A stretch of DNA of 64,000 nucleotides. It comes from a virus. Its lineage: Duplodnaviria > Caudoviricetes. Of this stretch, positions 8,852 to 21,157 are shown piece by piece. The stretch covers positions 32,001 to 96,000 of the IMG/VR virus record IMGVR_UViG_3300031867_000013; one strand, written 5' to 3'. The position numbers were made by a program, and so were the translations under genes. The notes below the pieces were generated by a model, which saw nothing but the letters and a program-made list of their open reading frames with translations, ran no database searches and had not been told where the DNA came from. Positions within the stretch are counted from its first letter, which is position 1. Each line of letters opens with the position of its first letter.

Positions 8852-10198
8852 TTATATACCTATATTCTTTGCGGCATCTTTTATCTTATTCTTATCTTTT
8901 AATTTCTCTACTGCATACCTCATGCTGTCCACACAATGGTCATTACGTTTGAGAGGACGGTCAATACCTCTTTCTTGTGCTTTATCGTCCCATACATATG
9001 TATTTATTTCTCTTAATAAATTTTTACATTCTGTAGATACTTTTAATTTTCCTTCTGCTATATATGTAGCTACATCTCTTATACCATCTATAACAGAGTT
9101 TCTTGCATCTTTTGTTCTCATACCACTTCTATGTAATTGAACTTTGAAACTTGCCGCCGCAGGGTCTACAACAATATCCATTTTATTAAATGGTATTTGC
9201 GTATATTCATATGTTTGACCTAAAAACTCTACCATATCATCTGCAAATTCTAAATCAGTTTTTTGTGTATCATAATTACCGTGTTCATTCGCTTCTGCAC
9301 GACCTTCAAAATAATATTCTCTAACACAATATAATATTCCATTAAATGTTTTCATCCACAACGTAAAAACTGTAGCATTTCCTGTACCATAGTCTACACC
9401 AACGCACCATTTTATTGCTTCATCATAAGGAACTTCATCGGGTCTTACTACATTCTTCTCATTTGTAAACATATCATATATTCTACCCTCTGCTGATACC
9501 CATTTCCCTAAAATATATCTTGAATAGAATACACCACCATACATTTTCTTATATCGCTCTTTTACTTTATCAGATAATGATAAATTATCATCCATAGTAA
9601 AATGAACATATAAACCATTTTTATTATCTAATTGTTGCAATACATTTTTATAAAACCAATGATAAGGCCCAGCAGGATTACAATTACAAAAACATTTTGC
9701 ACCCTCTACCGATAATCTTGCAGTTGCTTGATTAAAAAATGATTCTGGTAATAGAGCGATTTCGTCCATTAGAACCGAGCAGAGTGTCATGCCCTGTATA
9801 TAATCTTGTGAAGATTCATCTTTAGCACCTGCGATGTATATATAATTAGTTATATCACCTTTAGAAACTTCTATATAATTTTCGCTACGATGTTCTAAAC
9901 AATTATATCCTAATGTTAATAACATTTGCTTTAATGGATTTAATACATTTCTTCTAAATGTTCCTACTGATTTTCCTGCCATTAATGCGTCTTGTTGATT
10001 AAAATTATTCATTACAAACATTACAAAAGATAATGCCATGCAAATTGTCTTACCAGACCTTATTGCACCGTCAGCAATAACCATAAACTTATCTTTTACA
10101 GGACTATCTTTGTGCCACCAATTTAATATCTTTTTCTGTTTTTCCGAAAAAGGTTGAAATTGAAAACCTTTTACCTTCCTTTTTTTACTATTTGCCAC
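8852..10198 (-). CDS. terL: Terminase large subunit (PBSX-like)
   Basis: Walker A 'GAIRSGKT', Walker B 'VLMDE', 'NCNPAGPYHW', nuclease 'GVDYG', 'DHCVDSMRY'. Confidence 0.95.
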   Translation of the reverse strand: MANSKKRKVKGFQFQPFSEKQKKILNWWHKDSPVKDKFMVIADGAIRSGKTICMALSFVMFVMNNFNQQDALMAGKSVGTFRRNVLNPLKQMLLTLGYNCLEHRSENYIEVSKGDITNYIYIAGAKDESSQDYIQGMTLCSVLMDEIALLPESFFNQATARLSVEGAKCFCNCNPAGPYHWFYKNVLQQLDNKNGLYVHFTMDDNLSLSDKVKERYKKMYGGVFYSRYILGKWVSAEGRIYDMFTNEKNVVRPDEVPYDEAIKWCVGVDYGTGNATVFTLWMKTFNGILYCVREYYFEGRAEANEHGNYDTQKTDLEFADDMVEFLGQTYEYTQIPFNKMDIVVDPAAASFKVQLHRSGMRTKDARNSVIDGIRDVATYIAEGKLKVSTECKNLLREINTYVWDDKAQERGIDRPLKRNDHCVDSMRYAVEKLKDKNKIKDAAKNIGI

Positions 10199-10214
10199 GA
10201 TATATCACACCTAA

Positions 10215-11033
10215 TTAATCATCTTCTTTTAATGTTTCATTTAAGTCTGCATTTATATCTTCATTTCCCCACGAACTCTTAGAACTTTCACCTAATGCAG
10301 AAAGTATATTACTATCAATATTTTCTTCAACTTTCTTTTGTGCTTTCCACTCAAAGAAATTCCTTATATTTTCCCACGCTTTCATCTTATCGGGTAATTG
10401 AATAGTGATACCATCTTTTCCTTGTTTAATTGAAACAATTATACTTGTATCTACTGTATCGCTATCTACTAAATGCATACGATTTACTTTCTTAAATTTT
10501 TGTTCTCCTGTATCTGGGTCAAATCTTAATGTACCATCTACATTATATTCTGGTATTTCTTCTTCACTAAATTTGATATAATCACCTATATCTGCATTTG
10601 CTATTTTTAATTGTGTTTCTATATATTTTGATGGGTCTATTTCATATCCTATTGTTAATATTTTCTTTAATTTCTTTATAGCATTTTGTATATTTGATTT
10701 ATTTAATAATCTATAACCATATAATGATGCTAACTTCTTATCCCCACCAAAAGATTTTAAGTATGCTTGCGTAGCATTTGTAGATTCTAAATAGTATAGT
10801 ACAAAATCTTGTTGTTTTGGTGTAAGACCTAATCCAACTAATTCATCTACTATTTTATCATTTACTTGATCTTTTCTTATATTTTCTGACCTTCTAAAAT
10901 CATCGTATATATCTTCTACGTCCACATCTTCTTTTCGTGGTCTGCCACGTTTAGGCTTTATTTCTATATTCTTTTCTTCTAACTTTTCATCTATATTTTC
11001 TTTTAAATTATCTGTTAGATATGTTTCTGCCAT
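10215..11033 (-). CDS. terS: Terminase small subunit
   Basis: 'LTPKQQDFVLYYL..NATQAY' HTH and 'DKMKA' motif; upstream of TerL; AT-hook 'KRGRPRK'. Confidence 0.85.
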   Translation of the reverse strand: MAETYLTDNLKENIDEKLEEKNIEIKPKRGRPRKEDVDVEDIYDDFRRSENIRKDQVNDKIVDELVGLGLTPKQQDFVLYYLESTNATQAYLKSFGGDKKLASLYGYRLLNKSNIQNAIKKLKKILTIGYEIDPSKYIETQLKIANADIGDYIKFSEEEIPEYNVDGTLRFDPDTGEQKFKKVNRMHLVDSDTVDTSIIVSIKQGKDGITIQLPDKMKAWENIRNFFEWKAQKKVEENIDSNILSALGESSKSSWGNEDINADLNETLKEDD

Positions 11034-11138
11034 TTATTAGACACTCCTTTCTTATATAAAAATATTATAATTTACTTAAAAATTATCTTATATTATATCA
11101 TATTTTTACACATTTGTCAAGCCTTAAAAATAGACATA

Positions 11139-11169
11139 CTAAAAGCCCCCAACGGACGGGGGCTTTTAG
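11139..11169. terminator. Terminator hairpin ending the RNA-island transcript
   Basis: CTAAAAGCCCCC-AACGGAC-GGGGGCTTTTAG perfect inverted repeat. Confidence 0.75.
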
Positions 11170-11236
11170 CTGTAAAGGAGATGTTAAAAATGAAGGATAG
11201 CTTTAAGGCAATTACCTTATCGCCACCATATTATAT

Positions 11237-11311
11237 TGGCGGGAAATAAGATAATCGAAATCTTGTCTTTAGATTGACAATCTAATATTCTAACCACTGA
11301 ACTAATTTCCC
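11237..11311 (-). tRNA. tRNA-Asp (GTC)
   Basis: GGGAAAT/ATTTCCC acceptor, anticodon arm TTAGA-TTGTCAA-TCTAA, TTCGA T-loop, encoded CCA. Confidence 0.9.
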
Positions 11312-11322
11312 GTTATATACAT

Positions 11323-11394
11323 TGGATGCGGCGGCTGGTAACGCTCCAGCTTAATCTAGCCCATGAAACTAGACGGGTTCTTAACCTCACCGCG
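11323..11394 (-). tRNA. Atypical tRNA with CAT anticodon (Met/fMet-like)
   Basis: CGCGGTG/CGCCGCA acceptor with C1:A72 mismatch, CTAGT-TTCATGG-GCTAG anticodon arm, CCA; short D arm and non-canonical T loop. Confidence 0.65.
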
Positions 11395-11397
11395 ATT

Positions 11398-11712
11398 AGT
11401 GGGCGTATTATAAATCATAATTGTAAACTTCTTACGCCTAAAGTTTTATTTTGAATAAGAGCGCGTCTTACCGATATTGCCTTGTTCCTATTATCGCGCT
11501 GATTAATAGTCATGGAGAGAACCACTTTCGCAATTCTCCCAAGTATATATCCGCAAATATATACCCCAATTAATATTTTAAGACGTATAACACACAAACT
11601 TCTGTCTTTCTGCCTTTCTGAATATATTTAGGCTTTATACACCCATACTAAGCAAAGTTTTACTGATTATGCTAATATAATTGCCTAACTACTATATAGC
11701 ATTTCGTGTGAA
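11398..11712 (-). ncRNA. Unassigned structured RNA (~310 nt) between tRNAs
   Basis: Nested helices: CACACGAA/TTTGTGTG, ACGTCTTA/TAAGACGC, GTATATAT/ATATATAC, GGGAGAA/TTCTCTC, CGATA/TATCG, GGCGTA/TACGCC; no credible ORF. Confidence 0.5.
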
Positions 11713-11740
11713 ATATTTATTTTAAGTTAAGATGTTTCTT

Positions 11741-11815
11741 TGGTAGGGACGATGAGAATCGAACTCATGTTGATGGTTTATAAGACCATTATACTCACCA
11801 TTGTATTACGTCCCA
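11741..11815 (-). tRNA. tRNA-Ile (TAT)
   Basis: Anticodon arm ATGGT-CTTATAA-ACCAT, GTTCGA T-loop, GGGACG/CGTCCC acceptor, CCA. Confidence 0.85.
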
Positions 11816-11849
11816 ATATTATATACATATTAAATGTTTTATACATTAC

Positions 11850-11913
11850 TACAAGATGCTTTTACATTCATCTTCACCCAAGAATTTGTAAAATAATTGC
11901 TGTTAGCATCTTT
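11850..11913 (-). ncRNA. ACAGCAA stem RNA copy A
   Basis: AAAGATGCT-AACAGCAATTA-TTTTACA...TGTAAAA-GCATCTTGTA. Confidence 0.65.
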
Positions 11914-12062
11914 ATAATTTAGGGGGTAGCTAAATAAAATTACTATAAATATTTTTAAATTGGGTTCTATAGTATAATAAATCTACAATTTTAAAACAAG
12001 GTATTCACGCCAATTTTTATAGTTATTATACTATAGAACTCTATTAGATGCCTAAACTTATC

Positions 12063-12168
12063 TACAAGACACATTATAAAAACTGTCTAAAAATACTTTT
12101 GGACTTCTTAGATTTAATTTTTCTGTTATCAAATAAATTATATCAATTCATTTGCTGTTCGTGTCTTT
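12063..12168 (-). ncRNA. ACAGCAA stem RNA copy B
   Basis: AAAGACACG-AACAGCAAA...TGTGTCTTGTA; TTGACA/TATAAT promoter just upstream (12180-12207). Confidence 0.65.
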
Positions 12169-12224
12169 CATTGTCTGTATTATATCATATAATTTTTAAT
12201 TTGTCAACCATTTTTTTATTTTTT

Positions 12225-12309
12225 TGGTGTCGAAGGAGGGAATCGAACCCTCATGGTAAAGACCGCAGAGGCTTAAACTCTGTGCGTATGCCAATTTCGC
12301 CACTCCGAC
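12225..12309 (-). tRNA. tRNA-Leu (TAA)
   Basis: CAGAG-TTTAAGC-CTCTG anticodon arm, long variable arm, GTTCGA, CCA. Confidence 0.9.
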
Positions 12310-12375
12310 ATATCTTATTTACATTTGTATTATACCACACGAATTTTAATTTGTCAATACTTTTTTCTTTTTCTA

Positions 12376-12462
12376 TATGCGCCCCATCCACGCACATAAT
12401 ACACAGCCCCATTAAACTTTGCTATGCTCCCTTTGAGGTTATCCGTGTGGCTACGGTTTAGG
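12376..12462 (-). ncRNA. Small multi-hairpin RNA with its own promoter
   Basis: TTGACA-17-TATATT at 12471-12499; hairpins CCGT/ACGG, GCATAGC/GCTGTGT, TATGTGC/GCGCATA. Confidence 0.45.
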
Positions 12463-12518
12463 ATATTTATAATATAGCACACAATTCTAATTTTGTCAAC
12501 TACTTTTTAAATATTTTT

Positions 12519-12596
12519 CAAAAAGAAAAGCGGGAAGAACCACCAACCCGCTTTCTTTCTTGATTTAGACAAGTTATGTCTGCAATCAACACTCTA
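12519..12596 (-). ncRNA. Candidate small RNA: promoter, hairpin, terminator
   Basis: TTGACA/TGGTATAAT promoter at ~12603-12631, hairpin TTGATT..AGACA/TGTCT..AATCAA, then AAAGCGGG/CCCGCTTT plus T-run. Confidence 0.4.
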
Positions 12597-12627
12597 TTTT
12601 GTATTATACCACAATTTTTATAATTTG

Positions 12628-14412
12628 TCAAATAAATAATGCGTCAATTTGTGCTTTTGTTGCAATAATTGAACCGCCTATTATATCCCATTTTTCTTTT
12701 TCTGTATCTGTAAAAGTTGATTCTGATGTATGTGCTAATTTACATTTATATATAAATTTATCATGCACAACTACTGTATCTAATTGATAATATGTACTTG
12801 CTTGCCAATTCTTTAAGTCACTAAATACTAAATCCCAATTTCCTATATCTGTTTCAAAACTAATATTAGAACTTGTGTGTGAATTATTGCACCTATATAA
12901 ACTATTTGCATAATTTACTACTTGATTGGTTTTATATTCTGTATTTATAGCCCAATCTTCTAATACTAATACAGATTCAGAACCTAATTCATTCCATTTA
13001 GATATATCAAAATTTACCCCGCTTGTATGTGCTGTTTTACACTCATATAAGCAATCATCATATATTACTATTTGATATACTTCATATTGAGTATTTGCCG
13101 CCCAATGTGCCATTTTATTTCCATCATATATTGTAGTTACGTGCTTTGTCCCATCGGGGTCTGTAAATGTTATTTTATGTTGACCTACTACTGTTTCATC
13201 TATAGTAGTTGTTGGGGATTTACCATCTACACCATCATTTATTGTTACAGTTTGTGTTCCATTCTTATCTGTAATACTTAATGTAGAATATTTTGCTCCT
13301 GCGGATTTTGTTAAATTTACAGTAGGACTATAACCATCTGCACCATTAGATATAACTGTTGTAGAAGTTCCTGCCGCCGAAACAATAGTAACTGTATGTG
13401 TACCATTTGGATTATCTACTACTGTTATTGAAGGGCTTACTCCATTTTCTCCTTTATCACCTTTATCACCTTTATCGCCCTTCATACCAATTATCTTACC
13501 GCAATTTTGCCATTCATATTGTTGTGTACTTGTATTTTCTAACCACATATATAAATATGGCACTTCTTCATCTAATGGGTCTCCAACTAAATAAGCATCA
13601 CCTACAGTACCAGTTGGGTGTGCGGCTTCTAAATCTTCTAATGTTTCATATTGCGCTCTTATTGTAAAGGATTTACCATCTTCACCCTTATCGCCTTTAT
13701 CACCTTTTGCGCCATCTCTTATTTTTGCACTTGTTGTGCCATTAACATCTTGAATTGTTATTGTAGCTGTATCTCCTGTTTTAGATACACTTGCAGAAGG
13801 GCTTACACCGCTTGCTCCATTTGTTCCGTTCATTACATTAAAATCTTTTGTTCCCGATTTATCTGTAATTGAAACTTTATGACCATTAGTTATATTAGTT
13901 ATTGCTACTGTAGGACTATAACCATCTGAGCCTTTTGCTCCATTTGTACCATTATATATATTTGCTGTAGTTGTTCCATTTATATCTACTAATGTTATAG
14001 TTGCTCCACTAGCTGTTTGTGTAATTTTTGCTGTAGGAACTGCTTGAACATCTACGTTTAATTTATCGCCTTGCATTTTAAGACCGCTACCTACTTTTGC
14101 GCCACCTTTTATGTTTGCTGACATTGTTGGAAGTGTATATGGCGTACCGCCGCCACCGCCGCCACCACCCCCTTTCCCGTTTACCTTAAAAGGGACTGTT
14201 GTGAATACTGCGTCTTTATTACCCGCACTTCTTACATATACTGTACCATCAAATGCTACTATCTGATTCTCAATTAATTTTATACCTGTATTATCTTCAT
14301 TAGTTGCAGATATTTCAATAGGTACTTTACTTGTGTTTTGAATAGACCCTGTAGTTTCTTCTGGTGAAACCCAAGTTCCTGCTTTTACATTATACTTTGC
14401 CATCAATATCAT
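12628..14412 (-). CDS. Collagen-like repeat protein with three C-terminal CBM5/12-like carbohydrate-binding repeats
   Basis: G-X-Y runs (GDKGDKGE), repeated 'G.DG.SPT' units, three 'W....Y....V.Y...LY.C...HTS' repeats. Confidence 0.7.
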   Translation of the reverse strand: MILMAKYNVKAGTWVSPEETTGSIQNTSKVPIEISATNEDNTGIKLIENQIVAFDGTVYVRSAGNKDAVFTTVPFKVNGKGGGGGGGGGTPYTLPTMSANIKGGAKVGSGLKMQGDKLNVDVQAVPTAKITQTASGATITLVDINGTTTANIYNGTNGAKGSDGYSPTVAITNITNGHKVSITDKSGTKDFNVMNGTNGASGVSPSASVSKTGDTATITIQDVNGTTSAKIRDGAKGDKGDKGEDGKSFTIRAQYETLEDLEAAHPTGTVGDAYLVGDPLDEEVPYLYMWLENTSTQQYEWQNCGKIIGMKGDKGDKGDKGENGVSPSITVVDNPNGTHTVTIVSAAGTSTTVISNGADGYSPTVNLTKSAGAKYSTLSITDKNGTQTVTINDGVDGKSPTTTIDETVVGQHKITFTDPDGTKHVTTIYDGNKMAHWAANTQYEVYQIVIYDDCLYECKTAHTSGVNFDISKWNELGSESVLVLEDWAINTEYKTNQVVNYANSLYRCNNSHTSSNISFETDIGNWDLVFSDLKNWQASTYYQLDTVVVHDKFIYKCKLAHTSESTFTDTEKEKWDIIGGSIIATKAQIDALFI

Positions 14413-14687
14413 TCCTTTCTTTTATATATGCACAAATAGGACATACATATAGTATGCCCTAATATTATTCTTATTAAATTGCTATGTTATATTTCAATAC
14501 TCCATAATTGACTATTACAATTATAGTATCTCGGCACAAAATGTTTCTATCATATAACATAACATAAGTGGTGGTAATCAACCCAACTTTCAGTATCATC
14601 TTTAATAAAGATATGATTGCTGTAAGTGCCTTATATATCAATGAAAAGATAGACATATATTTCTATATGCCTATCCTCATCTACATA

Positions 14688-16214
14688 TTATCCAAAAACT
14701 TTGTCTATTACTGCATATCGAGGTACATTAAGCTGTTCTACAAGAGCCTTATATGGGTCTAATTGTGAACTCATTACCATACTCATAAGGTTCTTACTAA
14801 ACCCGCTAAGAAGAACAACTCCCATTTCATTCTCTGTCAGCGGAATCGTACCTGTACGACTATTTACATTCCAAAATACTAACTTTGGAAGTTTATAACC
14901 TTTTGCCGCAAACCTATTACGTATTGTTTCAAACAATGCTTCATTTACTGTTGGTGTTCTTTCTCCCCAAAAAGAATTACCATTAGCCACTCCGTCAAAT
15001 TCACAATCCGTGATGATAAGCACTGTATTAGGCATTTCGTCCTGCGACATATGATTCTTTACTGCTGTATCAAGAATCAAATCAAATGTTGCTTCGATAT
15101 TTGTATTAGAGCAATCATTATATTTATGCATAATATTAAGATTACCAAATAAGGTATCACTATTTACAGTTACCATTTGTGGCTTACTGCTAAATGTAAT
15201 AAACTTATTCTTAAATTCTCCACTATTATTTTGAGCGCAATATAATGAAATTGCACTTGCTACATCTAATGCAGAAACATTACTATTACCAATAGTAACT
15301 GTCATAGAACCACTACCATCACGTACAACAAGTGTATTTTTGAAACCTTCTACCTTGTCTTGTGCGTTCCATAATGCTTCTAGTGTTTCATCGACACCAT
15401 TAAACCGACCATAGTTAAATGCACCATACTTATGCACAATATCATGTAAAAACATAGCTTGTGCATTAATCTTTGTTTCACCATTTTTAAGTGATTCAAG
15501 ATATTCTATACGACGCTTTTCATCGTGTTTCATAAAAGCAAAACCATAATTAAGATTTGCCTTTGATGGAACAGCACTATATTCAATATCGTTCCACTCA
15601 TTTGCAGACATTTTACGTTCTACAATATCAATATGCTTACGTAACTTGCTAAGAACTTTACGATATTCCTTTGAACTAAATTCAAACCATTTCTTAATGA
15701 TATGACCGCGCTTAACTGTTTCTGCACTTGACGCATTAACAGATGGCATCCACTTAGCCAAAAGTGAAATAGGTTTACCTTCTTTATAGTTCTTCATATC
15801 GTCAATAAATTGTCCGATTACACGACTACGAATTGCAAGTTGTACTTTCTTGCTCTTTGTATTAAAATAAATATCAAGAATATCATCCCAACGACCATAT
15901 TCTGCAATATCCACTTCATTAATTAGCTTTACTGCAATATCTTCGTGTGCCTTTGCAAGATAAACCATAAATTCTCTAAATGATTTACGTTCACCTACAC
16001 CACCACGAACATCACGCAAAAATAGAAGCCATTTTAAAGTAAGCACTTTATCTTCATTAAGTGCTTCTTCAAATAATGCAGTATCTACTTCTGTACGGAA
16101 AGAAGGAATTGCAAAATTAAGGTCTACAATCTTATGACCTTCTGTAGCAAAACCTACTGCACCATTTTCTGTTAGCTTCTTCTCATTCTTCTCCATTGCT
16201 TTGATAAAACTCAT
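14688..16214 (-). CDS. DUF2828-family protein (TROVE/Ro60-like helical domain plus vWA domain)
   Basis: 'TENGA', 'RDVRGGVGER', 'EYGRWDD', 'SLLAKWMPS', MIDAS 'DGSGSM', 'TDCEFD', 'PKLVFWNV', 'LSGFS' motifs. Confidence 0.85.
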   Translation of the reverse strand: MSFIKAMEKNEKKLTENGAVGFATEGHKIVDLNFAIPSFRTEVDTALFEEALNEDKVLTLKWLLFLRDVRGGVGERKSFREFMVYLAKAHEDIAVKLINEVDIAEYGRWDDILDIYFNTKSKKVQLAIRSRVIGQFIDDMKNYKEGKPISLLAKWMPSVNASSAETVKRGHIIKKWFEFSSKEYRKVLSKLRKHIDIVERKMSANEWNDIEYSAVPSKANLNYGFAFMKHDEKRRIEYLESLKNGETKINAQAMFLHDIVHKYGAFNYGRFNGVDETLEALWNAQDKVEGFKNTLVVRDGSGSMTVTIGNSNVSALDVASAISLYCAQNNSGEFKNKFITFSSKPQMVTVNSDTLFGNLNIMHKYNDCSNTNIEATFDLILDTAVKNHMSQDEMPNTVLIITDCEFDGVANGNSFWGERTPTVNEALFETIRNRFAAKGYKLPKLVFWNVNSRTGTIPLTENEMGVVLLSGFSKNLMSMVMSSQLDPYKALVEQLNVPRYAVIDKVFG

Positions 16215-16229
16215 TTTTAATCATCCTTT

Positions 16230-16320
16230 CAAGTTGCCTTTTATTTTTTAACCCTATAAGGGTACGATTAACGCGATGTAATCCAAATTAAATAAAAACT
16301 ATTTTGCTGTATGCAACTTT
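16230..16320 (-). ncRNA. ACAGCAA stem RNA copy C, in the 5' leader of the DUF2828 gene
   Basis: AAAGTTGCAT-ACAGCAAA...GCAACTTG directly followed by AAAGGATG RBS and ATG; promoter at ~16330-16358. Confidence 0.65.
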
Positions 16321-16377
16321 ATATTTTATATTATATCATATTTTTTATATTTTGTCAATATAAATTTTTAATATTTT

Positions 16378-16451
16378 TGGAGCGATTAAGGAGATTTGAA
16401 CTCCTACCGACTACTTGGAAGGAAGTCATGCTACCATTACACTATAACCAC
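16378..16451 (-). tRNA. tRNA-Gly (TCC)
   Basis: Anticodon loop CTTCCAA, GTTCAA T-loop, TCCA 3' end. Confidence 0.85.
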
Positions 16452-16460
16452 ATATAAATT

Positions 16461-16563
16461 TACAAGCCGCCACAAGACGTCGGGTCAGATACAGGATTCT
16501 AACCTGTCTTAATACACATCTGTAAATCCGACAATTATCTTCTTTATTGCTGTTAGTGACTTT
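16461..16563 (-). ncRNA. ACAGCAA stem RNA copy D with T-arm mimic
   Basis: AAAGTCACT-AACAGCAAT...GGCGGCTTGTA; internal CAGAT/ATCTG helix stacked on ACAGG-TTAGAAT-CCTGT. Confidence 0.6.
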
Positions 16564-16605
16564 ATACTGCGAAAGGAGGACTCTCACATTGAAAATACTA
16601 TTTTA

Positions 16606-16728
16606 TACAAGACACATCTCTTTTTAATGCGACCGCACACCGAACAGCATACAACTGTGTTGGGAGTTTAACCCAATCCTTATTTTTTGCAGAAATAATT
16701 AAGAAAAATAATTGCTGTTTGTGTCTTT
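16606..16728 (-). ncRNA. ACAGCAA stem RNA copy E with Cys anticodon-arm and T-arm mimic
   Basis: AAAGACACA-AACAGCAATT...TGTGTCTTGTA; TTATTT-CTGCAAA-AAATAA then TTGGG-TTAAACT-CCCAA. Confidence 0.65.
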
Positions 16729-16748
16729 TTTAAATTATTTACATATTT

Positions 16749-16824
16749 TGGTGACGAATCGGGGAATCGAACCCACGCTCTAGGGATTGAAAGCCCCTCG
16801 TCCTAACCGCTAGACTAATTCGTC
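16749..16824 (-). tRNA. tRNA-Glu (TTC)
   Basis: AGGGG-CTTTCAA-TCCCT anticodon arm, GTTCGA, GACGAAT/ATTCGTC acceptor, CCA. Confidence 0.9.
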
Positions 16825-16830
16825 ATATTA

Positions 16831-16904
16831 TACAAGATGCTAAATGATAAGTAAAATAAAATATGCGCTTTATATACTTGAAAATAATTGCTGTTCGCAT
16901 CTTT
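16831..16904 (-). ncRNA. ACAGCAA stem RNA copy F
   Basis: AAAGATGCG-AACAGCAATTATTTT...AGCATCTTGTA; promoter at ~16911-16939. Confidence 0.65.
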
Positions 16905-16948
16905 TTCTGTATTATAACATATAAAATTTAATTTGTCAATACTTTTTT

Positions 16949-17164
16949 TTAATTTTTTCTTGGTAATCCTAATCTTTTTGCCAAACTATTTGCAAATACA
17001 AGAATATCTAAATTAAATTCATTTGCAATATTACCAATTAAAATAAATACTTGCAAAATAAGTTGAATTGGAACAAAAATTATAAACAATAAACAAAACT
17101 GTAAAAATTGTGTTATTGTCATTTCATAAATATCATATACTATTTTCATCTTTTTGTTCACCAT
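16949..17164 (-). CDS. Small membrane protein (paralog of 17133-17357)
   Basis: Hydrophobic 'YDIYEMTITQFLQFCLLFIIFVPIQLIL'. Confidence 0.55.
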   Translation of the reverse strand: MVNKKMKIVYDIYEMTITQFLQFCLLFIIFVPIQLILQVFILIGNIANEFNLDILVFANSLAKRLGLPRKN

Positions 17165-17357
17165 CTTCTTTTACAGGAAAATTCCATTTTTCTGCAAGTT
17201 CAAAGACATAATTCTTGACAATTTCATCTAATTCTCCCATCTTTGCCCCAACAAAAACAAAAACAGAAAGAAATAGATGAATAGGTACTCCTACAATACT
17301 AAGAAGTAGAAATTCTAAAAATTGTACTATTGTCATTTTCTTTATATCGTATTTCAT
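17133..17357 (-). CDS. Small membrane protein (paralog of 16949-17164)
   Basis: 'YDIKKMTIVQFLEFLLLSIVGVPIHLFL'; GGTGGTG RBS. Confidence 0.6.
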   Translation of the reverse strand: MKYDIKKMTIVQFLEFLLLSIVGVPIHLFLSVFVFVGAKMGELDEIVKNYVFELAEKWNFPVKEDGEQKDENSI

Positions 17358-17393
17358 GTATTTTCACCACCTATAATGTTTTATATATATTAT

Positions 17394-17468
17394 TGGTGGG
17401 CTTATCAGAAGTTGAATCTGAACTAGAAATTTAGAAGATTTCTGTGCTGTCCGTTACACTATAAGCCA
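17394..17468 (-). tRNA. tRNA-Arg (TCT)
   Basis: GAAAT-CTTCTAA-ATTTC anticodon arm, CCA end. Confidence 0.85.
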
Positions 17469-17478
17469 ATTATATTTC

Positions 17479-17794
17479 TGGTGGACTAGACGGAGGCGAA
17501 TCCGTGTCCGAAATTACTACATTTCAAAGAACTATCACAATAGCTATATTAACTGATAGCAACAGTAGTAGAAAAGGAGATTTTATTATGAAAAACTTTG
17601 TTGTATTTATTTAATATTTTTCTGCATTGACCTACAACATAGTATTACAGAAAAAGAAACTGATAGCAACTTATGCCGCTACAGCTTCATATTCAAAAGA
17701 AAAGTTGTCAGTTATTATACTGTTTAGACTTTAACGCTGTACATTCCGTGTGAACTTTGAAATTTCATAACTCCGTCGAAACATAAACTAGCCC
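17479..17794 (-). ncRNA. ssrA: tmRNA; tag (A)DNFSFEYEAVAA* at 17709-17671
   Basis: 5' GGGCTAG...TTTCGAC, 3' GGACACGGATTCGCCTCCGTCTAGTCCACCA, G3:U70 pair, ATAACT-GAC resume context, tag ending in AA-stop. Confidence 0.92.
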
Positions 17795-17807
17795 ATATTA
17801 AATTTTA

Positions 17808-17881
17808 TGGCAGGAGTTGAAGGAATCGAACCCCCATAGGTAGTTCTGGAGACTACCGTATTACCATTATACGAAACTCCC
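17808..17881 (-). tRNA. tRNA-Trp (CCA)
   Basis: GTAGT-CTCCAGA-ACTAC anticodon arm, GTTCGA, GCCA end. Confidence 0.9.
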
Positions 17882-17885
17882 ATTT

Positions 17886-18140
17886 ATGCGCCTTTATAGA
17901 CCCCTCCTGTCTAATGCCGCCACATAGCTTGTGATAGACCGACCCATTAAAAGAAACATAAATGTTTCTCACCTACCCGACCAAGATATATATCTTGAAG
18001 CCCTATCACTCCAATATTGTGAAAATGTATTTAGGTGCTTACCCCACACCACAGGACAAAATCAAAACTGTTTGCGCGACAACCGACAAACCCAAACAAA
18101 TATCCACATGATAGTTGTTTTCGCGCACCTTTATATAGAA
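17886..18140 (-). ncRNA. Unassigned structured RNA (~255 nt) between tRNA-Lys and tRNA-Trp
   Basis: GC-richer island with helices TGCGCGA..ACAAC/GTTGTCGCGCA, TCCTGT/ACAGGA, GTGATAG/CTATCAC, CAAGAT/ATCTTG, GAAACA/TGTTTC. Confidence 0.5.
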
Positions 18141-18158
18141 GATTGGTCTTTTAATTTT

Positions 18159-18235
18159 TGGTGGGACTAATAGGATTCTAACTTATATCTTGCGAATTAA
18201 AAGTTCGCTGTACTTAACAATTATACTATAGTCCC
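18159..18235 (-). tRNA. tRNA-Lys (TTT)
   Basis: GCGAA-CTTTTAA-TTCGC anticodon arm, GGGACTA/TAGTCCC acceptor, CCA. Confidence 0.88.
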
Positions 18236-18239
18236 ATCT

Positions 18240-18312
18240 GTGCGGAAATTATGGAATTTAACCATAACCTTATATCCCATGACATATATGCTAAACATTA
18301 CACCAATTCCCG
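18240..18312 (-). pseudogene. Degenerate tRNA (Pro-TGG-like)
   Basis: CGGGAAT/ATTTCCG acceptor and D arm present; anticodon loop only 6 nt (CATGGG); no CCA. Confidence 0.45.
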
Positions 18313-18319
18313 CATATCA

Positions 18320-18387
18320 TACAAGGCACGTTTGCTTGGATAGATTAAAAGTCTATTACATTAAAAATAATTGCTGTATGTGCCTTT
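18320..18387 (-). ncRNA. ACAGCAA stem RNA copy G with Lys anticodon-arm mimic
   Basis: AAAGGCACAT-ACAGCAATTATTTT...GTGCCTTGTA; internal ATAGA-CTTTTAA-TCTAT. Confidence 0.65.
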
Positions 18388-18475
18388 AGTCAAAAGAAAG
18401 GAGATGTTGAATGTCAATCTTTTTCATTGACAAGCATATTATATCACAAAATTTTACGTTTGTCAATAGGAAAAA

Positions 18476-18658
18476 TTAATTCTGTTTAAACATTTTTTCA
18501 ATTTCCTCTGAACTTGCCAAATATGTTATACATTCTCCACATTTTTGATTATATTCTCTATAAAATTTTTTAATTTCTTTCTTTTTACGCTCTCTTGCAC
18601 GTTTACTATAAAACATAGAACTTGTATTTACTCCTGCACATTTACCTGTATATTTCAT
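18476..18658 (-). CDS. Hypothetical protein
   Basis: ORF with AGGAGAG RBS. Confidence 0.5.
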   Translation of the reverse strand: MKYTGKCAGVNTSSMFYSKRARERKKKEIKKFYREYNQKCGECITYLASSEEIEKMFKQN

Positions 18659-18673
18659 TTTTATCTCTCCTAA

Positions 18674-19084
18674 TCAAAAAGCATTATCATAACATATTTC
18701 ATGTGTTTTCTCATAAGATAAATTTGGATTAAATATAAATTTAAAATTATATCCTTGTGTATTCAAATATAATATTTTTCTCAAAATTGTTTTTAAATAT
18801 CCAAATGCTGTTGATTGTCTTGTATTTAATAATTCTTGTAACATTGTTGCATTATGAATAATATTTATATCTCCTGTATATTTATTCAACTCACAAAGTT
18901 TAAAAAACCTATACAATTCATTTAAAACAAATATTGTTTTATTATATTTAAATTTTGCTTGTGAAGATATAATTCTTTTACAAACACTTTCATTATATTT
19001 CAATTCCAGAAAGTATGTAAAAATAAATCTAGAACCTCTTTTTATATCACTTTCAAAATGTAAATAAATATTTTTCATATTCAT
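18674..19084 (-). CDS. Hypothetical protein
   Basis: ORF with AGGAG RBS. Confidence 0.55.
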   Translation of the reverse strand: MNMKNIYLHFESDIKRGSRFIFTYFLELKYNESVCKRIISSQAKFKYNKTIFVLNELYRFFKLCELNKYTGDINIIHNATMLQELLNTRQSTAFGYLKTILRKILYLNTQGYNFKFIFNPNLSYEKTHEICYDNAF

Positions 19085-19182
19085 TACTCCTAAATAATTT
19101 TTGTATATATTATATTACATTTTTATCTTTTTTGAAATAGCAAAAAAGTCCTATTTATTTTCCAAACACCTTTTCGATTTCC

Positions 19183-19250
19183 TACATATTTATACATATT
19201 TATACATATTTATATTTTAAATACTTATTAAATACTTATTAAATACTTAG
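19183..19250. repeat. Short tandem repeats (TACATATTTA x3; AAATACTTATT x3) in the AT-rich divergent intergenic region
   Basis: Directly visible direct repeats. Confidence 0.6.
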
Positions 19251-19512
19251 ATAAATATAAGATAATAAAATATAAAAACAATATATAACACAAGCATATT
19301 TATATGCTTGTCAGTTATATTATAATAAAGAGTATTTAATATATCTTTCTTAATATTATAGAATATTATTATTATTATTTATTATTACTTATGTATAAAT
19401 ATGTTATATAGGGTAGCACACAAAATTTAATTTGTCAATAGGAAAAAAGTCCTATTTTTAATAAACCAAAAGTCTTATTTTTAATTATTTTCAAAAAGTA
19501 ATAAAAAATATG

Positions 19513-19541
19513 TTGACAAATATAAAATTTTGTGGTATAAT
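19513..19541 (+). promoter_or_regulatory. sigma-A promoter for the plus-strand gene block
   Basis: TTGACA-N17-TATAAT with extended -10 TG. Confidence 0.75.
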
Positions 19542-19633
19542 ACAAACAATTATAGATATTCTCTCCAAAAATTACAGTTTTAATGCATTATATGGAGAAA
19601 ATATATAGATTTTGAAGAAAGGAGGAATCCTTC

Positions 19634-20155
19634 TTGAAACCTGTTATATCAAGCAAAAATACAAAAGGAATGGTAAATTTTACAAAATCTATGGTTCATA
19701 GTATAGCAAATATAGCTTCTGTATCTCCAAGAAGTTTAGCTTTATTTTTAGCTTTATGTTCTTATGCTGATGACAATGGTTCATTAATTACAGACAATAA
19801 AACATTAGCACATTTAGTTAAAACAGAAACAAGAAAAATTGATTATTGTTTAAGAACACTACAGGAACATGGATTAATAGAAATACATAATGTAAATATT
19901 AAATATAATCACGATATATTTGGTAAAATACATGATAAACAAAATTATTATAAAACTAATAAACAAGAATGGAATATTACAGGAGATAGATATTTAACTA
20001 CAATAACTATTAGTGGTACATATAAAAGAATTTATCTTAATAAAGAATATGTTTCTTTTGCTAATGGTTATTATAATACATTATTATTATATGTTAAAAA
20101 TAATTTATACTATGATACAAGATTATCAGACAATCAAATTATTGAAGAAAGGTGA
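19634..20155 (+). CDS. RepL-like winged-helix DNA-binding protein
   Basis: 'LFLALCSYADDNGSLITDNKTLAHLV..ETRKIDYCLRTLQEHGLI'; AAGGAGG RBS, TTG start. Confidence 0.5.
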   Translation: MKPVISSKNTKGMVNFTKSMVHSIANIASVSPRSLALFLALCSYADDNGSLITDNKTLAHLVKTETRKIDYCLRTLQEHGLIEIHNVNIKYNHDIFGKIHDKQNYYKTNKQEWNITGDRYLTTITISGTYKRIYLNKEYVSFANGYYNTLLLYVKNNLYYDTRLSDNQIIEER

Positions 20156-20160
20156 GAATT

Positions 20161-20334
20161 ATGGAAGTACAAAATGCAAACTTAAATATTCGTATTCCTC
20201 TTAAACTTAGGGAGAGATTTGTAGAAGTAGCAAACAATAATGGTTTAACACATTCTGTTGTTTTGCGTACAATGGTAGCAGAATATGTAAGAGCAAATGG
20301 AAAACTAGAAATATTTAAACATATTGGTAAATAA
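20161..20334 (+). CDS. Ribbon-helix-helix DNA-binding protein
   Basis: 'NLNIRIPLKLRERF...NGLTHSVVLR'. Confidence 0.65.
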   Translation: MEVQNANLNIRIPLKLRERFVEVANNNGLTHSVVLRTMVAEYVRANGKLEIFKHIGK

Positions 20335-20359
20335 TTATAAGTAAATAAAGGGTGATTTC

Positions 20360-21157
20360 ATGTTAAATAAAGAGCAAATAGCTTCTGAAAAACTTAACAG
20401 TCACTTATTTACACATCGTATTAGTGCAGATAAAGCATTTATTGTTGTTCTATCTGATATACATGAAGGAATAAATCATAGAGCCTATTTTAAATCTATT
20501 ATTGATTTTATTTTAACAATTCCTAATTGTTATGTCATTATAGGTGGAGATTCTATAAATGCTTCTATTAGAGGTTCTAAAGGAAATACTACAGAAGAAT
20601 GGTCTAGTGGTGATAAACAAATATATGACCTTGTAGATGACTTAAAACCATTAGTAGATGATAATAGAATTATAGCAATAGGTGAAGATGGTAATCATAA
20701 TGATAGAATTTATAATGATGCTTATATTTCTGTAAATAAAATGATTGCAATACTATTAGGTATTCGTGAAAAATATACAGGTAATATGTGTATTGGTATG
20801 ATAAATGTAAATAAGTGTTGTTATACTTTAAGTATTATACATAAGAATAGAAAGACAAATAATTATTATGAATATCAAAGAGTAGATTTATTAATTAAAG
20901 AACATTGGCATGATTTAAAATATGAATGTAAAGCTGTATTTGATTTTAATAAAACAGCTAAAACAATTTCTCTTGTGCCAACATATGAAATTTATAATGG
21001 TTCTTTCTTAAATCTTCCCGATTATGGAATGAAAGCAGGATATAGACCTCAATTCATGGGTACATATTTTATTGAATTAAGTGGTAAAGACCGTAATATT
21101 TCTATTTGGGAAGATAATAAACTTTATATGGCGATAAAAGGTGGATATAAGGTATGA
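20360..21157 (+). CDS. Calcineurin-like metallophosphoesterase
   Basis: 'SDIHEG', 'GGD', 'GNHN', 'HWH' motifs. Confidence 0.75.
   Translation: MLNKEQIASEKLNSHLFTHRISADKAFIVVLSDIHEGINHRAYFKSIIDFILTIPNCYVIIGGDSINASIRGSKGNTTEEWSSGDKQIYDLVDDLKPLVDDNRIIAIGEDGNHNDRIYNDAYISVNKMIAILLGIREKYTGNMCIGMINVNKCCYTLSIIHKNRKTNNYYEYQRVDLLIKEHWHDLKYECKAVFDFNKTAKTISLVPTYEIYNGSFLNLPDYGMKAGYRPQFMGTYFIELSGKDRNISIWEDNKLYMAIKGGYKV

What the first reader, a model, noticed from the sequence alone, without database searches (positions are those of the whole stretch)
16461..18387. The stem RNAs carry tRNA anticodon-arm and T-arm mimics (Lys-UUU, Cys-GCA)
Seen: copy G holds ATAGA-CUUUUAA-UCUAU, the same 7-nt loop as the phage tRNA-Lys. 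Copy E holds UUAUUU-CUGCAAA-AAAUAA (Cys loop), then a short spacer and a 5-bp/7-nt T-arm-like hairpin, i.e. the 3' half of a tRNA. Copy D holds a helix stacked on ACAGG-UUAGAAU-CCUGU, with the same T-loop variant as the tRNA-Lys. Known: defence anticodon nucleases (PrrC, PARIS AriB) cut tRNA-Lys(UUU). Inference: these are decoys or baits for anticodon nucleases or tRNA-modifying enzymes. Copies A, B, C and F show no clean 7-nt anticodon loop.
Basis: partly seen in the sequence, partly recalled or inferred. Interest (0 to 1): 0.8.

Follow-up and report, generated by a model that had tools for sequence, protein, structure and literature searches.

The report
tRNA-part mimics on phage Y-like RNAs
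Three small RNAs in this phage's tRNA island carry real, evolutionarily maintained copies of tRNA parts inside a conserved "handle" that travels with a Ro60-shaped protein. This makes them a variant of the known tRNA-mimicking Y RNAs, and what they bait is still untested.

Summary
The window lies in a 118-kb phage. Copy G (18320-18387, minus strand) has a 5-bp/7-nt hairpin with the tRNA-Lys anticodon loop. Copy E (16606-16728) has an anticodon-arm-like hairpin, a 3-4 nt spacer and a T-arm-like hairpin. Copy D (16461-16563) has a T-arm stacked on a 7-bp acceptor-like helix.

This exceeds chance: 4 such hairpins against 0.33 in shuffles (0/2000). It also holds in homologues. In 290 non-redundant elements from 180 related loci only 7-nt loops are enriched, and the excess consists of T-loops (29 vs 0.1; 21 vs 0.07) and anticodon-type loops. 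Stems covary in orthologues.

The elements share a handle: a 7-bp stem, ACAGCAA and a 3' CUUG. The handle tracks the adjacent DUF2828/DUF7788 protein, whose model matches Ro60 full-length. Longer relatives are permuted T/acceptor/D domains that hit Rfam YrlA below its threshold.

So this is a new variant of a known kind, tRNA-mimicking Y RNAs. The Lys-UUU anticodon hairpin is the commonest such module (7 of 24). The "Cys" identity of E is not kept in its orthologues.

The decoy-for-anticodon-nuclease idea is compatible with the data but untested. This scan has reported the same RNA family before on many other genomes.

The parts
18320..18387 (-). Copy G: handle RNA (7-bp closing stem, ACAGCAA, 3' CUUG) whose only interior structure is a tRNA-Lys(UUU) anticodon stem-loop mimic at 18340-18356
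   Evidence: The same module with covarying stems occurs in 7 other phages.
16606..16728 (-). Copy E: handle RNA with an anticodon-arm-like hairpin (16680-16698), a T-arm-like hairpin (16660-16676), a short capped hairpin (16644-16658) and a GG-loop hairpin (16626-16641). It is a degenerate YrlA-type permuted tRNA-like domain.
   Evidence: The orthologue L011 60-186 has a canonical T-loop, a long capped acceptor hairpin and a canonical D-arm, and scores 26 bits on the Rfam tRNA model.
16461..16563 (-). Copy D: handle RNA (one mismatch in the closing stem) holding a non-permuted tRNA minihelix. A 7-bp acceptor-like stem (16526-16532 / 16484-16490) is stacked on a T-arm (16491-16507), with an 18-nt linker in place of the D and anticodon arms.
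   Evidence: 12/12 pairs are kept in 3 orthologues, and 7 pairs change on both sides.
16831..16904 (-). Copy F: handle RNA starting at the transcription start of a 12/12 promoter, with no tRNA-like module. The relative L007 has a full YrlA-like RNA at this position.
16228..16320 (-). Handle element in the 5' leader of the DUF2828 gene
14688..16214 (-). DUF2828 + DUF7788 protein with the Ro60 fold (HEAT-repeat ring plus vWA domain with a DGSGS MIDAS motif). It is the presumed partner of the handle.
14520..14633 (-). Handle element just downstream of the DUF2828 gene (variant 5' and 3' ends)
   Evidence: Equivalent elements occur in L001, L013 and L016-L018.
12062..12168 (-). Handle element, no tRNA-like module
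11850..11913 (-). Handle element, no tRNA-like module
18159..18235 (-). Phage tRNA-Lys(UUU), whose anticodon loop and T-loop are the ones copied in G and D

Best explanation
Copies D, E and G are members of a large family of modular small RNAs built like Y RNAs. A conserved handle (7-bp covarying stem, two bases, ACAGCAA, and a 3' strand ending CUUG) is the likely docking site for the neighbouring Ro60-shaped DUF2828 protein. The variable interior displays a piece of tRNA. Three module types occur in the family and in this window: a circularly permuted T-arm/capped-acceptor/D-arm domain as in YrlA (E, degenerate); an acceptor/T-arm minihelix in normal order (D); and a bare anticodon stem-loop, most often that of tRNA-Lys(UUU) (G).

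The RNAs are transcribed from strong promoters together with the phage tRNAs. They are probably released when the flanking tRNAs are processed.

I infer that the displayed modules are recognition surfaces that bring tRNA-binding proteins to the ring protein or titrate them. For G these would be proteins that read the tRNA-Lys anticodon loop, either anticodon nucleases or modification enzymes. For D and E they would be enzymes that read the acceptor/T-arm elbow, such as RNase P, CCA-adding enzyme, TruB/TrmA, or exonucleases as in the Ro60-Y RNA-PNPase particle.

Shown here: the structures, their conservation and enrichment, the fold of the protein, and the handle-protein co-occurrence. Inferred: protein-handle binding, release as separate RNAs, and any client protein.
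For: - Handle and gene co-occurrence: handle elements number 249 on the gene strand against 21 on the opposite strand in 99 DUF2828 loci, and 243 against 7 in 82 further loci. 84/99 and 79/82 loci have at least one.
- Protein fold: the model (pLDDT 80.6) matches Ro60 structures full-length, E 6e-9 to 1e-6, TM 0.54-0.58, including the Ro60 of Thermus phage phiLo. It has a MIDAS motif. The family includes the mycobacteriophage 'Ro-like RNA binding proteins', and phage Samty has two handle RNAs directly after that gene, one of them YrlA-like.
- Enrichment, first set: in 170 non-redundant interiors, 5-bp/7-nt hairpins number 137 against 58 +/- 7.4, and no other loop size is enriched. UUCRANY loops number 29 against 0.1. 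None of the 170 overlaps an ARAGORN tRNA or tmRNA call; one candidate that overlapped a tmRNA call had been removed to reach 170.
- Enrichment, short elements of the first set: CU-NNN-AA loops number 9 against 0.19, and 0 on the reverse complement.
- Enrichment, replicate set: T-loops 21 against 0.07, and CU-NNN-AA loops 12 against 0.46.
- Test without pre-selection of hairpins: 7 of 12 CUUUUAA heptamers in interiors sit on a perfect 5-bp stem, against a 1.6% background. Similar heptamers score 0 of 13 and 0 of 4.
- Covariation: the D minihelix keeps 12/12 pairs with 7 double-sided changes. The G-type hairpin is 100% paired in 8 phages, 3 of 5 pairs covary, and the loop-closing A-U pair is invariant. 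The stem of the E hairpin is replaced compensatorily in L011.
- Rfam: YrlA hits of 37-47 bits, E down to 2.7e-9, on long relatives.
- Transcription: three 12/12 promoters lie directly upstream of handle elements.
Against:
- The window's own D, E and G hit no Rfam family even at E<=10.
- Only about 10% of short elements and about half of long ones carry a recognisable tRNA part, so tRNA mimicry is not universal in the family.
- The G-type alignment was assembled from hairpins already selected as perfect, so its pairing percentage is partly by construction.
- A relative of the protein counters the Ppl defence when expressed alone in T7 infection (preprint 10.1101/2024.10.10.617714). The protein may therefore act without these RNAs.
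Confidence: 0.72

Rival explanations
1. Anticodon-nuclease decoy. The Lys-UUU hairpin of G, and anticodon-type hairpins in relatives, are sacrificial or competitive substrates that soak up host tRNA-cleaving defence nucleases such as PrrC, PARIS AriB or Cas13a collateral activity. The Ro60-like protein would stabilise or present them.
For: - UUU is the commonest triplet among CU-NNN-AA hairpins: 7 of 24, against 2.5% expected from composition, binomial 1.5e-6.
- The mimic keeps the canonical loop and the A31-U39 closing pair.
- tRNA-Lys(UUU) is a known target of PrrC and PARIS (PMC1484252, PMC11464382; titles and abstracts seen).
- A Ro60-like relative counters one defence system.
- The genes sit in phage tRNA arrays, which are themselves linked to anti-nuclease functions.
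Against: - There is no cleavage or protection data.
- Other triplets recur that have no known nuclease in these hosts (GAU, GCA, GAA, GUU).
- A bare hairpin may lack the modifications some nucleases need.
- The defence countered by the relative (Ppl) is not known to be a tRNase, and there the protein worked without phage RNAs.
Confidence: 0.22
2. Adaptor or tether as in the Ro60-Y RNA-PNPase particle. The tRNA-like modules recruit an exonuclease or tRNA-processing enzyme to the ring protein for quality control or turnover of phage or host tRNAs and other structured RNAs.
For: This is the known mode of action of bacterial Y RNAs. The phiLo phage Ro60 with its Y-like RNAs forms complexes with host PNPase (PMC12135203). 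YrlA is a substrate of RNase P, TruB and DusA (PMC4201824). The gene lies inside tRNA arrays in Enterococcus and Bacillus phages and in this window.
Against: It does not explain why a bare Lys anticodon hairpin is the commonest short module. No PNPase or client data exist for this protein family.
Confidence: 0.25
3. Cis-acting leader and spacer structures of the tRNA precursor transcripts. They would serve stability, folding or processing signals, and their tRNA-like pieces would simply be leftovers of partial tRNA duplications.
For: - F and the leader element begin at transcription starts, and D and E lie between tRNA-Glu and tRNA-Gly.
- Lys-type hairpins lie 90-425 nt from a tRNA-Lys gene in L007, L171 and L128; G here is about 85 nt upstream of tRNA-Lys.
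- D shares an 11-nt T-arm string with tRNA-Lys.
- A degenerate tRNA-like sequence sits between G and tRNA-Lys.
Against: - Compensatory changes and invariant loops across phages whose proteins are only 31-46% identical.
- Enrichment is confined to 7-nt tRNA-type loops.
- The handle follows the protein gene even where no tRNA gene is within 1.5 kb, as in L046, which has six elements.
Confidence: 0.12

Closest known systems
YrlA-type bacterial and phage Y RNAs with Ro60/Rsr (Rfam RF02553; Chen et al. 2014, PMC4201824)
   Same: - Small RNAs encoded next to, and on the strand of, a Ro60-fold protein.
- A closing stem as protein handle.
- An interior that mimics tRNA: T-arm, capped acceptor hairpin, D-arm, and a V hairpin before the T-arm.
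- Long relatives hit the YrlA model at E down to 2.7e-9. Copy E has this layout in degenerate form.
   Different: - The handle sequence differs (ACAGCAA plus a 3' CUUG, rather than the YrlA/animal CGAA-type bulged helix).
- The partner is a DUF2828/DUF7788 protein with no TROVE match in a Pfam scan at E<=0.01.
- Scores stay below the Rfam cut-off (37-47 against 69 bits), and the window's copies do not hit at all.
- There are up to 8-9 copies per phage.
- Extra module types occur: a normal-order acceptor/T minihelix (D) and a bare anticodon stem-loop (G).
Thermus phage phiLo Ro60 with Yrl1/Yrl2 (PMC12135203; PDB 9KOP, 9L5Y)
   Same: A phage-encoded Ro60-fold protein with phage-encoded partner RNAs upstream of the gene. 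The structure is among the best matches to the model.
   Different: The phiLo RNAs were picked by a CGAA motif. No tRNA-part modules or anticodon mimicry are reported in the passages read.
Class I RNAs of dictyostelid amoebae (Kjellin et al. 2021, PMC7919456)
   Same: The handle layout is the same: a 5' G, a 6-bp stem, an 11-nt motif ending ACAGCAA, a variable interior of about 30-40 nt, a closing stem and a 3' CUG. This is seen in the curated sequences of the paper's supplement.
   Different: These are eukaryotic nuclear genes with their own promoter element. Their function and partner are unsettled, and an RRM protein is reported to bind one of them. No tRNA-part interiors are described. I did not test whether those amoebae have a DUF2828 protein.
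tmRNA tRNA-like domain and other acceptor/T-arm minihelices
   Same: Copy D has an acceptor stem stacked on a T-arm with a reduced D region and no anticodon arm, like the tRNA-like domain of tmRNA.
   Different: The acceptor end of D is not free; it continues into the handle. No CCA end or mRNA-like part is present. The genuine tmRNA of this phage lies at 17479-17794.
Bas63 gp130, a Ro60-like anti-Ppl protein (preprint 10.1101/2024.10.10.617714)
   Same: A Ro60-fold phage protein encoded directly upstream of a tRNA array. The authors suggest some of its 'tRNAs' may be Y RNAs. Felix O1-type coliphage proteins are homologues of the window's protein at 33-34% identity, E about 1e-68.
   Different: I did not align gp130 itself. 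Its effect was obtained without phage RNAs. The defence concerned is not known to target tRNA.

Membership tests
YrlA Y RNA (Rfam RF02553) | Score at or above the curated Rfam gathering threshold (69 bits) | tested here: not met
   There is no YrlA hit in window 10000-21000 at E<=1, nor in 16455-16735 at E<=10. Relatives score 37-47 bits.
YrlA Y RNA (Rfam RF02553) | Encoded within a few kb of, and on the same strand as, a Ro60 orthologue | tested here: met
   D, E and G lie 0.25-2.2 kb upstream of the Ro60-fold gene 14688-16214, all on the minus strand.
YrlA Y RNA (Rfam RF02553) | Permuted tRNA-like domain: T-arm, acceptor stem-loop, D-arm | tested here: inconclusive
   E has a T-like arm (loop with A instead of C56), a 4-bp capped hairpin and a GG-loop hairpin. 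Its orthologue L011 60-186 has canonical versions. D is in normal order and G has none of these arms.
YrlA Y RNA (Rfam RF02553) | Ro60-binding stem of the YrlA/animal type (CGAA-containing bulged helix) | tested here: not met
   The handle is a 7-bp stem followed by ACAGCAA, and CUUG closes the 3' strand. In the Rfam alignment ACAGCAAU falls opposite the YrlA 'cggCgaAU' stretch, so a distant relation is possible.
tRNA (RF00005 / ARAGORN) | Complete cloverleaf scoring above threshold | tested here: not met
   Neither ARAGORN (default settings, or thresholds lowered to 70-90%) nor Rfam tRNA calls D, E or G. None of the 170 retained homologous elements overlaps an ARAGORN call.
Ro60 / TROVE protein family (for the partner protein) | HEAT-repeat ring plus vWA domain fold | tested here: met
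   In the Foldseek search the 12 best matches are Ro60 or TROVE-domain structures, aligned full-length.
Ro60 / TROVE protein family (for the partner protein) | Sequence match to the Pfam TROVE model or to solved Ro60 chains | tested here: not met
   Pfam gives only DUF2828 and DUF7788 at E<=0.01. phmmer against PDB sequences finds nothing at E<=10.
Ro60 / TROVE protein family (for the partner protein) | MIDAS motif (DxSxS) in the vWA domain | tested here: met
   D299-G-S301-G-S303: four positions are invariant and G302 is conserved in at least 90% of the 33 homologues.
Dictyostelid Class I RNA | Terminal 6-7 bp stem, adjacent motif ending ACAGCAA, 3' C-U-G after the stem, about 60 nt overall | tested here: met
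   Compared by eye with curated Class I sequences in the supplement of PMC7919456. G is 68 nt with the same layout. Common descent was not tested.
Anticodon-nuclease decoy | Is cleaved by, or competes for, a tRNA anticodon nuclease and protects the phage | not testable with these tools
   This needs biochemistry or genetics. Only the sequence mimicry of the tRNA-Lys anticodon arm is shown.

The most novel reading that the evidence does not exclude
The handle RNAs are an RNA-based counter-defence kit. Each copy displays a different tRNA part, above all the tRNA-Lys(UUU) anticodon arm, as a decoy or sensor for host tRNA-cleaving immune nucleases. The Ro60-like ring loads, protects or recycles them. 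The same handle in amoebal Class I RNAs would then point to an ancient, cross-kingdom RNP whose partner protein has been overlooked.
Probability: 0.2. Interest if true: 0.88.

Novelty: new variant of a known kind. Interest (0 to 1): 0.64.

Why it matters
Y RNAs that imitate tRNA have been known since 2014, but what the imitation is for remains open. This family offers unusually clean material: one invariant handle and interchangeable modules that are single, recognisable tRNA parts. One of them, a bare tRNA-Lys(UUU) anticodon arm, recurs across distantly related phages. That makes the question directly testable module by module: which tRNA-reading enzyme binds each one, and does it matter for infection on hosts with tRNA-cleaving defences? 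It also names candidate RNA partners for a very widespread phage protein family (710 GenBank phage records) that has only a domain-of-unknown-function label. One member of that family is reported to defeat a bacterial defence system.

Tried and rejected
- Chance: rejected by shuffles in the window and in two homologue sets and by a reverse-complement control.
- Hidden true tRNAs inflating the counts: rejected. One candidate element that overlapped a tmRNA call was removed, and none of the 170 retained overlaps an ARAGORN gene.
- Known Rfam family for the window's copies: none at permissive thresholds.
- Sequence similarity of the protein to solved structures: none. Only the fold search worked.
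- Close relatives in GenBank phages by megablast: none.
- 'Cys' identity of E: not conserved in orthologues, although CUGCAAA hairpins recur in three unrelated short elements.
- RNA repair context: RtcB is absent from the complete 118-kb genome. One intein-split RNA_ligase-family (PF09414) gene next to a primase-like gene was found but is not informative.
- Cognate tRNA next to each anticodon mimic: 14 of 24 loci, and 5 of 8 for Lys against a 22% baseline. This is suggestive only, because the loci are partial.
- Two Wolin-lab reviews could not be read because they are not held.
Full report
**Context.** The window is part of a complete 117.9-kb phage genome with 30% G+C. On the minus strand between 11.2 and 18.4 kb lies an RNA island. 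It holds eight tRNA genes, a tmRNA (17479-17794), and a 508-aa gene (14688-16214) with Pfam domains DUF2828 and DUF7788.

Eight elements on that strand share one frame: AAAG, four variable bases, two bases, ACAGCAA (often followed by UUAUUUU), a variable interior, the complement of the four bases, then CUUGUA. Their 5' ends are at 11913, 12168, 14633, 16320, 16563 (D), 16728 (E), 16904 (F) and 18387 (G). No further copy exists elsewhere in the genome. Perfect 12/12 promoters stand directly upstream of G, of F and of the element in the leader of the protein gene. F and the leader element begin at about the transcription start.

**The observation.**
- G has a 5-bp stem and the loop CUUUUAA at 18340-18356. 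This is the anticodon loop of the phage's own tRNA-Lys.
- E has a 5-6 bp stem with loop CUGCAAA (16680-16698), a 3-4 nt spacer and a 5-bp stem with loop UUAAACU (16660-16676).
- D has a 5-bp stem with loop UUAGAAU (16491-16507), the T-loop variant of the same tRNA-Lys. It is followed without a gap by the 3' strand of a 7-bp helix whose 5' strand lies 18 nt upstream of the T-arm. This is the geometry of a tRNA acceptor/T-arm minihelix.
- The other five elements have no 5-bp/7-nt hairpin.
- Within the window's 532 interior bases there are four tRNA-arm-type hairpins against 0.33 expected. None of 2000 dinucleotide shuffles reaches four.

**Orthologues.** Metagenomic relatives whose protein is 91% (L007) and 81% (L011) identical carry orthologues of D and E.

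For D, a gapless 49-nt alignment keeps all 12 pairs of the acceptor-like helix and T-arm. Seven pairs change on both sides. The T-loop, the 18-nt linker and the flanks stay nearly constant.

For E, the T-like loop reads UUCAACU and UUCAAAU in the relatives, which is the canonical T-loop. The anticodon-like hairpin keeps a 7-nt loop with U at the second and A at the sixth position, while its stem is replaced compensatorily in L011. Its middle triplet changes (GCA, GCC, GUC), so the 'Cys' label has no standing in this lineage. The L011 orthologue continues with a long capped hairpin and a textbook D-arm. Rfam's tRNA model scores it at 26 bits, E 0.005.

E is therefore a worn copy of a circularly permuted tRNA-like domain, and its 'anticodon arm' occupies the place of the V stem-loop of YrlA.

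**The family and its partner protein.** The same handle lies beside DUF2828 genes in an Enterococcus phage, a Bacillus phage, faecal phage scaffolds and IMG/VR contigs. With a simple detector (ACAGCA, a 6-nt arm two bases upstream, its complement downstream, then UG or AG), 99 loci gave 249 elements on the gene strand against 21 on the other. A second set of 82 loci, mostly from a clade whose protein is about 33% identical, gave 243 against 7.

The protein model (pLDDT 80.6) matches Ro60 structures over its full length, including the Ro60 of Thermus phage phiLo. The next matches are isolated vWA domains. It has a MIDAS motif.

By tblastn the family covers 710 GenBank phage records, among them Felix O1-type coliphages and the mycobacteriophage 'Ro-like RNA binding proteins'. 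Mycobacteriophage Samty has two handle RNAs directly after that gene, and the second is YrlA-like at 38 bits. Long elements in other loci hit Rfam YrlA at 37-47 bits with E down to 2.7e-9, below the 69-bit cut-off.

These are therefore a divergent, handle-defined branch of the tRNA-mimicking Y RNAs described by Chen et al. (PMC4201824).

- First set: in 170 non-redundant interiors (12 kb), hairpins with a 5-bp stem and a 7-nt loop number 137 against 58 +/- 7.4 in shuffles. Loops of 3-6 and 8-11 nt are at expectation. None of the 170 overlaps an ARAGORN gene; one candidate that overlapped a tmRNA call had been removed.
- The excess is made of two kinds. UUCRANY T-loops number 29 against 0.1, all in elements of 80-150 nt, and 54 elements fall in that size class. 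Anticodon-type loops make up the rest.
- In the 101 short elements, YU-NNN-RN loops number 13 against 1.6 and CU-NNN-AA loops 9 against 0.19. The reverse-complement strand gives 4 and 0.
- Second set: T-loops 21 against 0.07, and CU-NNN-AA loops 12 against 0.46.
- Without any pre-selection of hairpins, 7 of the 12 CUUUUAA heptamers found in interiors sit on a perfect 5-bp stem, where 1.6% is the background. Comparable A/U-rich heptamers never do.
- Among the 24 CU-NNN-AA hairpins, UUU is the most frequent triplet (7; binomial 1.5e-6 against composition). It is followed by GAU and GCA (3 each), then GUU and GAA (2 each).
- Eight G-type RNAs from phages whose proteins are as little as about 33% identical align with an invariant loop, an invariant A-U closing pair and covarying outer pairs. 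Those rows were chosen as perfect hairpins, so the heptamer test is the cleaner evidence.

**Module types.** Of the T-arm-bearing elements, 17 have the following seven bases paired with a strand just downstream, the permuted YrlA layout. Nine have them paired with a strand upstream, the normal tRNA order as in D. Short elements such as G consist of the handle and a single anticodon stem-loop.

**Mechanism.** What is shown is structure, selection and genomic linkage. I infer a Ro60/Y-RNA-like particle in which the ring protein holds the handle and the interior presents a tRNA part to tRNA-reading proteins.

Known precedents are the PNPase tether of bacterial and phiLo Y RNAs and the action of RNase P, TruB and DusA on YrlA.

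For the Lys anticodon module, the natural clients are anticodon nucleases or anticodon-loop modification enzymes. The prominence of UUU fits the decoy idea, since tRNA-Lys(UUU) is a known target of PrrC and PARIS (papers listed). A Felix O1-type relative of the protein is reported to counter the Ppl defence. There, however, the protein sufficed without phage RNAs, and Ppl is not known to cut tRNA.

I therefore rate the general 'displayed tRNA-part bait on a Ro60-like RNP' reading at about 0.7 and the specific nuclease-decoy reading at about 0.2. Pure decay products of tRNA duplications are unlikely given the covariation. Nearby cognate tRNA genes do suggest that partial tRNA duplication is how modules arise.

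**Novelty.** tRNA mimicry by Y RNAs and Ro60-like proteins in phages are both published. I did not find the following described for phages in the library searches made: the ACAGCAA handle, its partnership with DUF2828 proteins, the multi-copy arrays inside tRNA islands, the normal-order minihelix module, or the bare anticodon-arm module.

The same handle is, however, the hallmark of dictyostelid Class I RNAs, as their curated sequences show. Earlier follow-ups of this scan reached the same family-level conclusion on many other genomes.

Noticed in passing
window 18240-18313 (-): Between copy G and tRNA-Lys lies a tRNA-like sequence with a 10-bp closing helix and a T-arm-like hairpin (loop UUAAAUU). 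ARAGORN calls it only at 90% threshold, as a tRNA with a 6-nt anticodon loop, and Rfam tRNA does not call it. It may be a degenerate or unconventional tRNA.
   Followed up: partly
window 11327-11396 (-): ARAGORN at 80% threshold calls a tRNA-Met(CAU)-like sequence next to tRNA-Asp. It is missed at default settings and by Rfam at E<=1.
   Followed up: no
window 17888-18129 (-) and 11400-11645 (-): Two stretches of about 240 nt between tRNA genes have no ORF and no Rfam hit. Other first-stage notes flagged them as structured RNAs. I did not examine them.
   Followed up: no
window 16566-16606 and 18388-18432 (-): The spacers just upstream of copies D and G contain CUCCUUUC-type runs that resemble the complement of a Shine-Dalgarno sequence. 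I did not test this.
   Followed up: no
G000:C1:98115-100163 (outside the window; L181 1192-3240, -): A 682-aa ORF combines an RNA_ligase-family domain (PF09414) with an intein and a LAGLIDADG endonuclease. It lies next to a Toprim (primase-like) gene. Whether it ligates RNA or DNA is open. RtcB is absent from the genome.
   Followed up: partly
L054 5993-6118 and L058 5999-6126: Some handle elements enclose what looks like an almost complete normal-order tRNA: a canonical D-arm, a T-arm, and an acceptor 3' strand followed by C-C-A-like bases, with an aberrant anticodon region. ARAGORN does not call them.
   Followed up: partly
Supplement of PMC7919456: Dictyostelid Class I RNAs carry the same handle (stem, CCUUACAGCAA, closing stem, CUG). 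The authors' outgroup candidates from Arabidopsis and Capsaspora also show it. DUF2828 is reported from eukaryotes, so a conserved protein-RNA pair across kingdoms is conceivable.
   Followed up: partly
window 12628-14412 (-): The 594-aa protein downstream of the DUF2828 gene has collagen-flanked surface repeats and CBM_5_12 modules. It is probably a fibre or adhesin. Its length varies widely among relatives (488-1143 aa).
   Followed up: no
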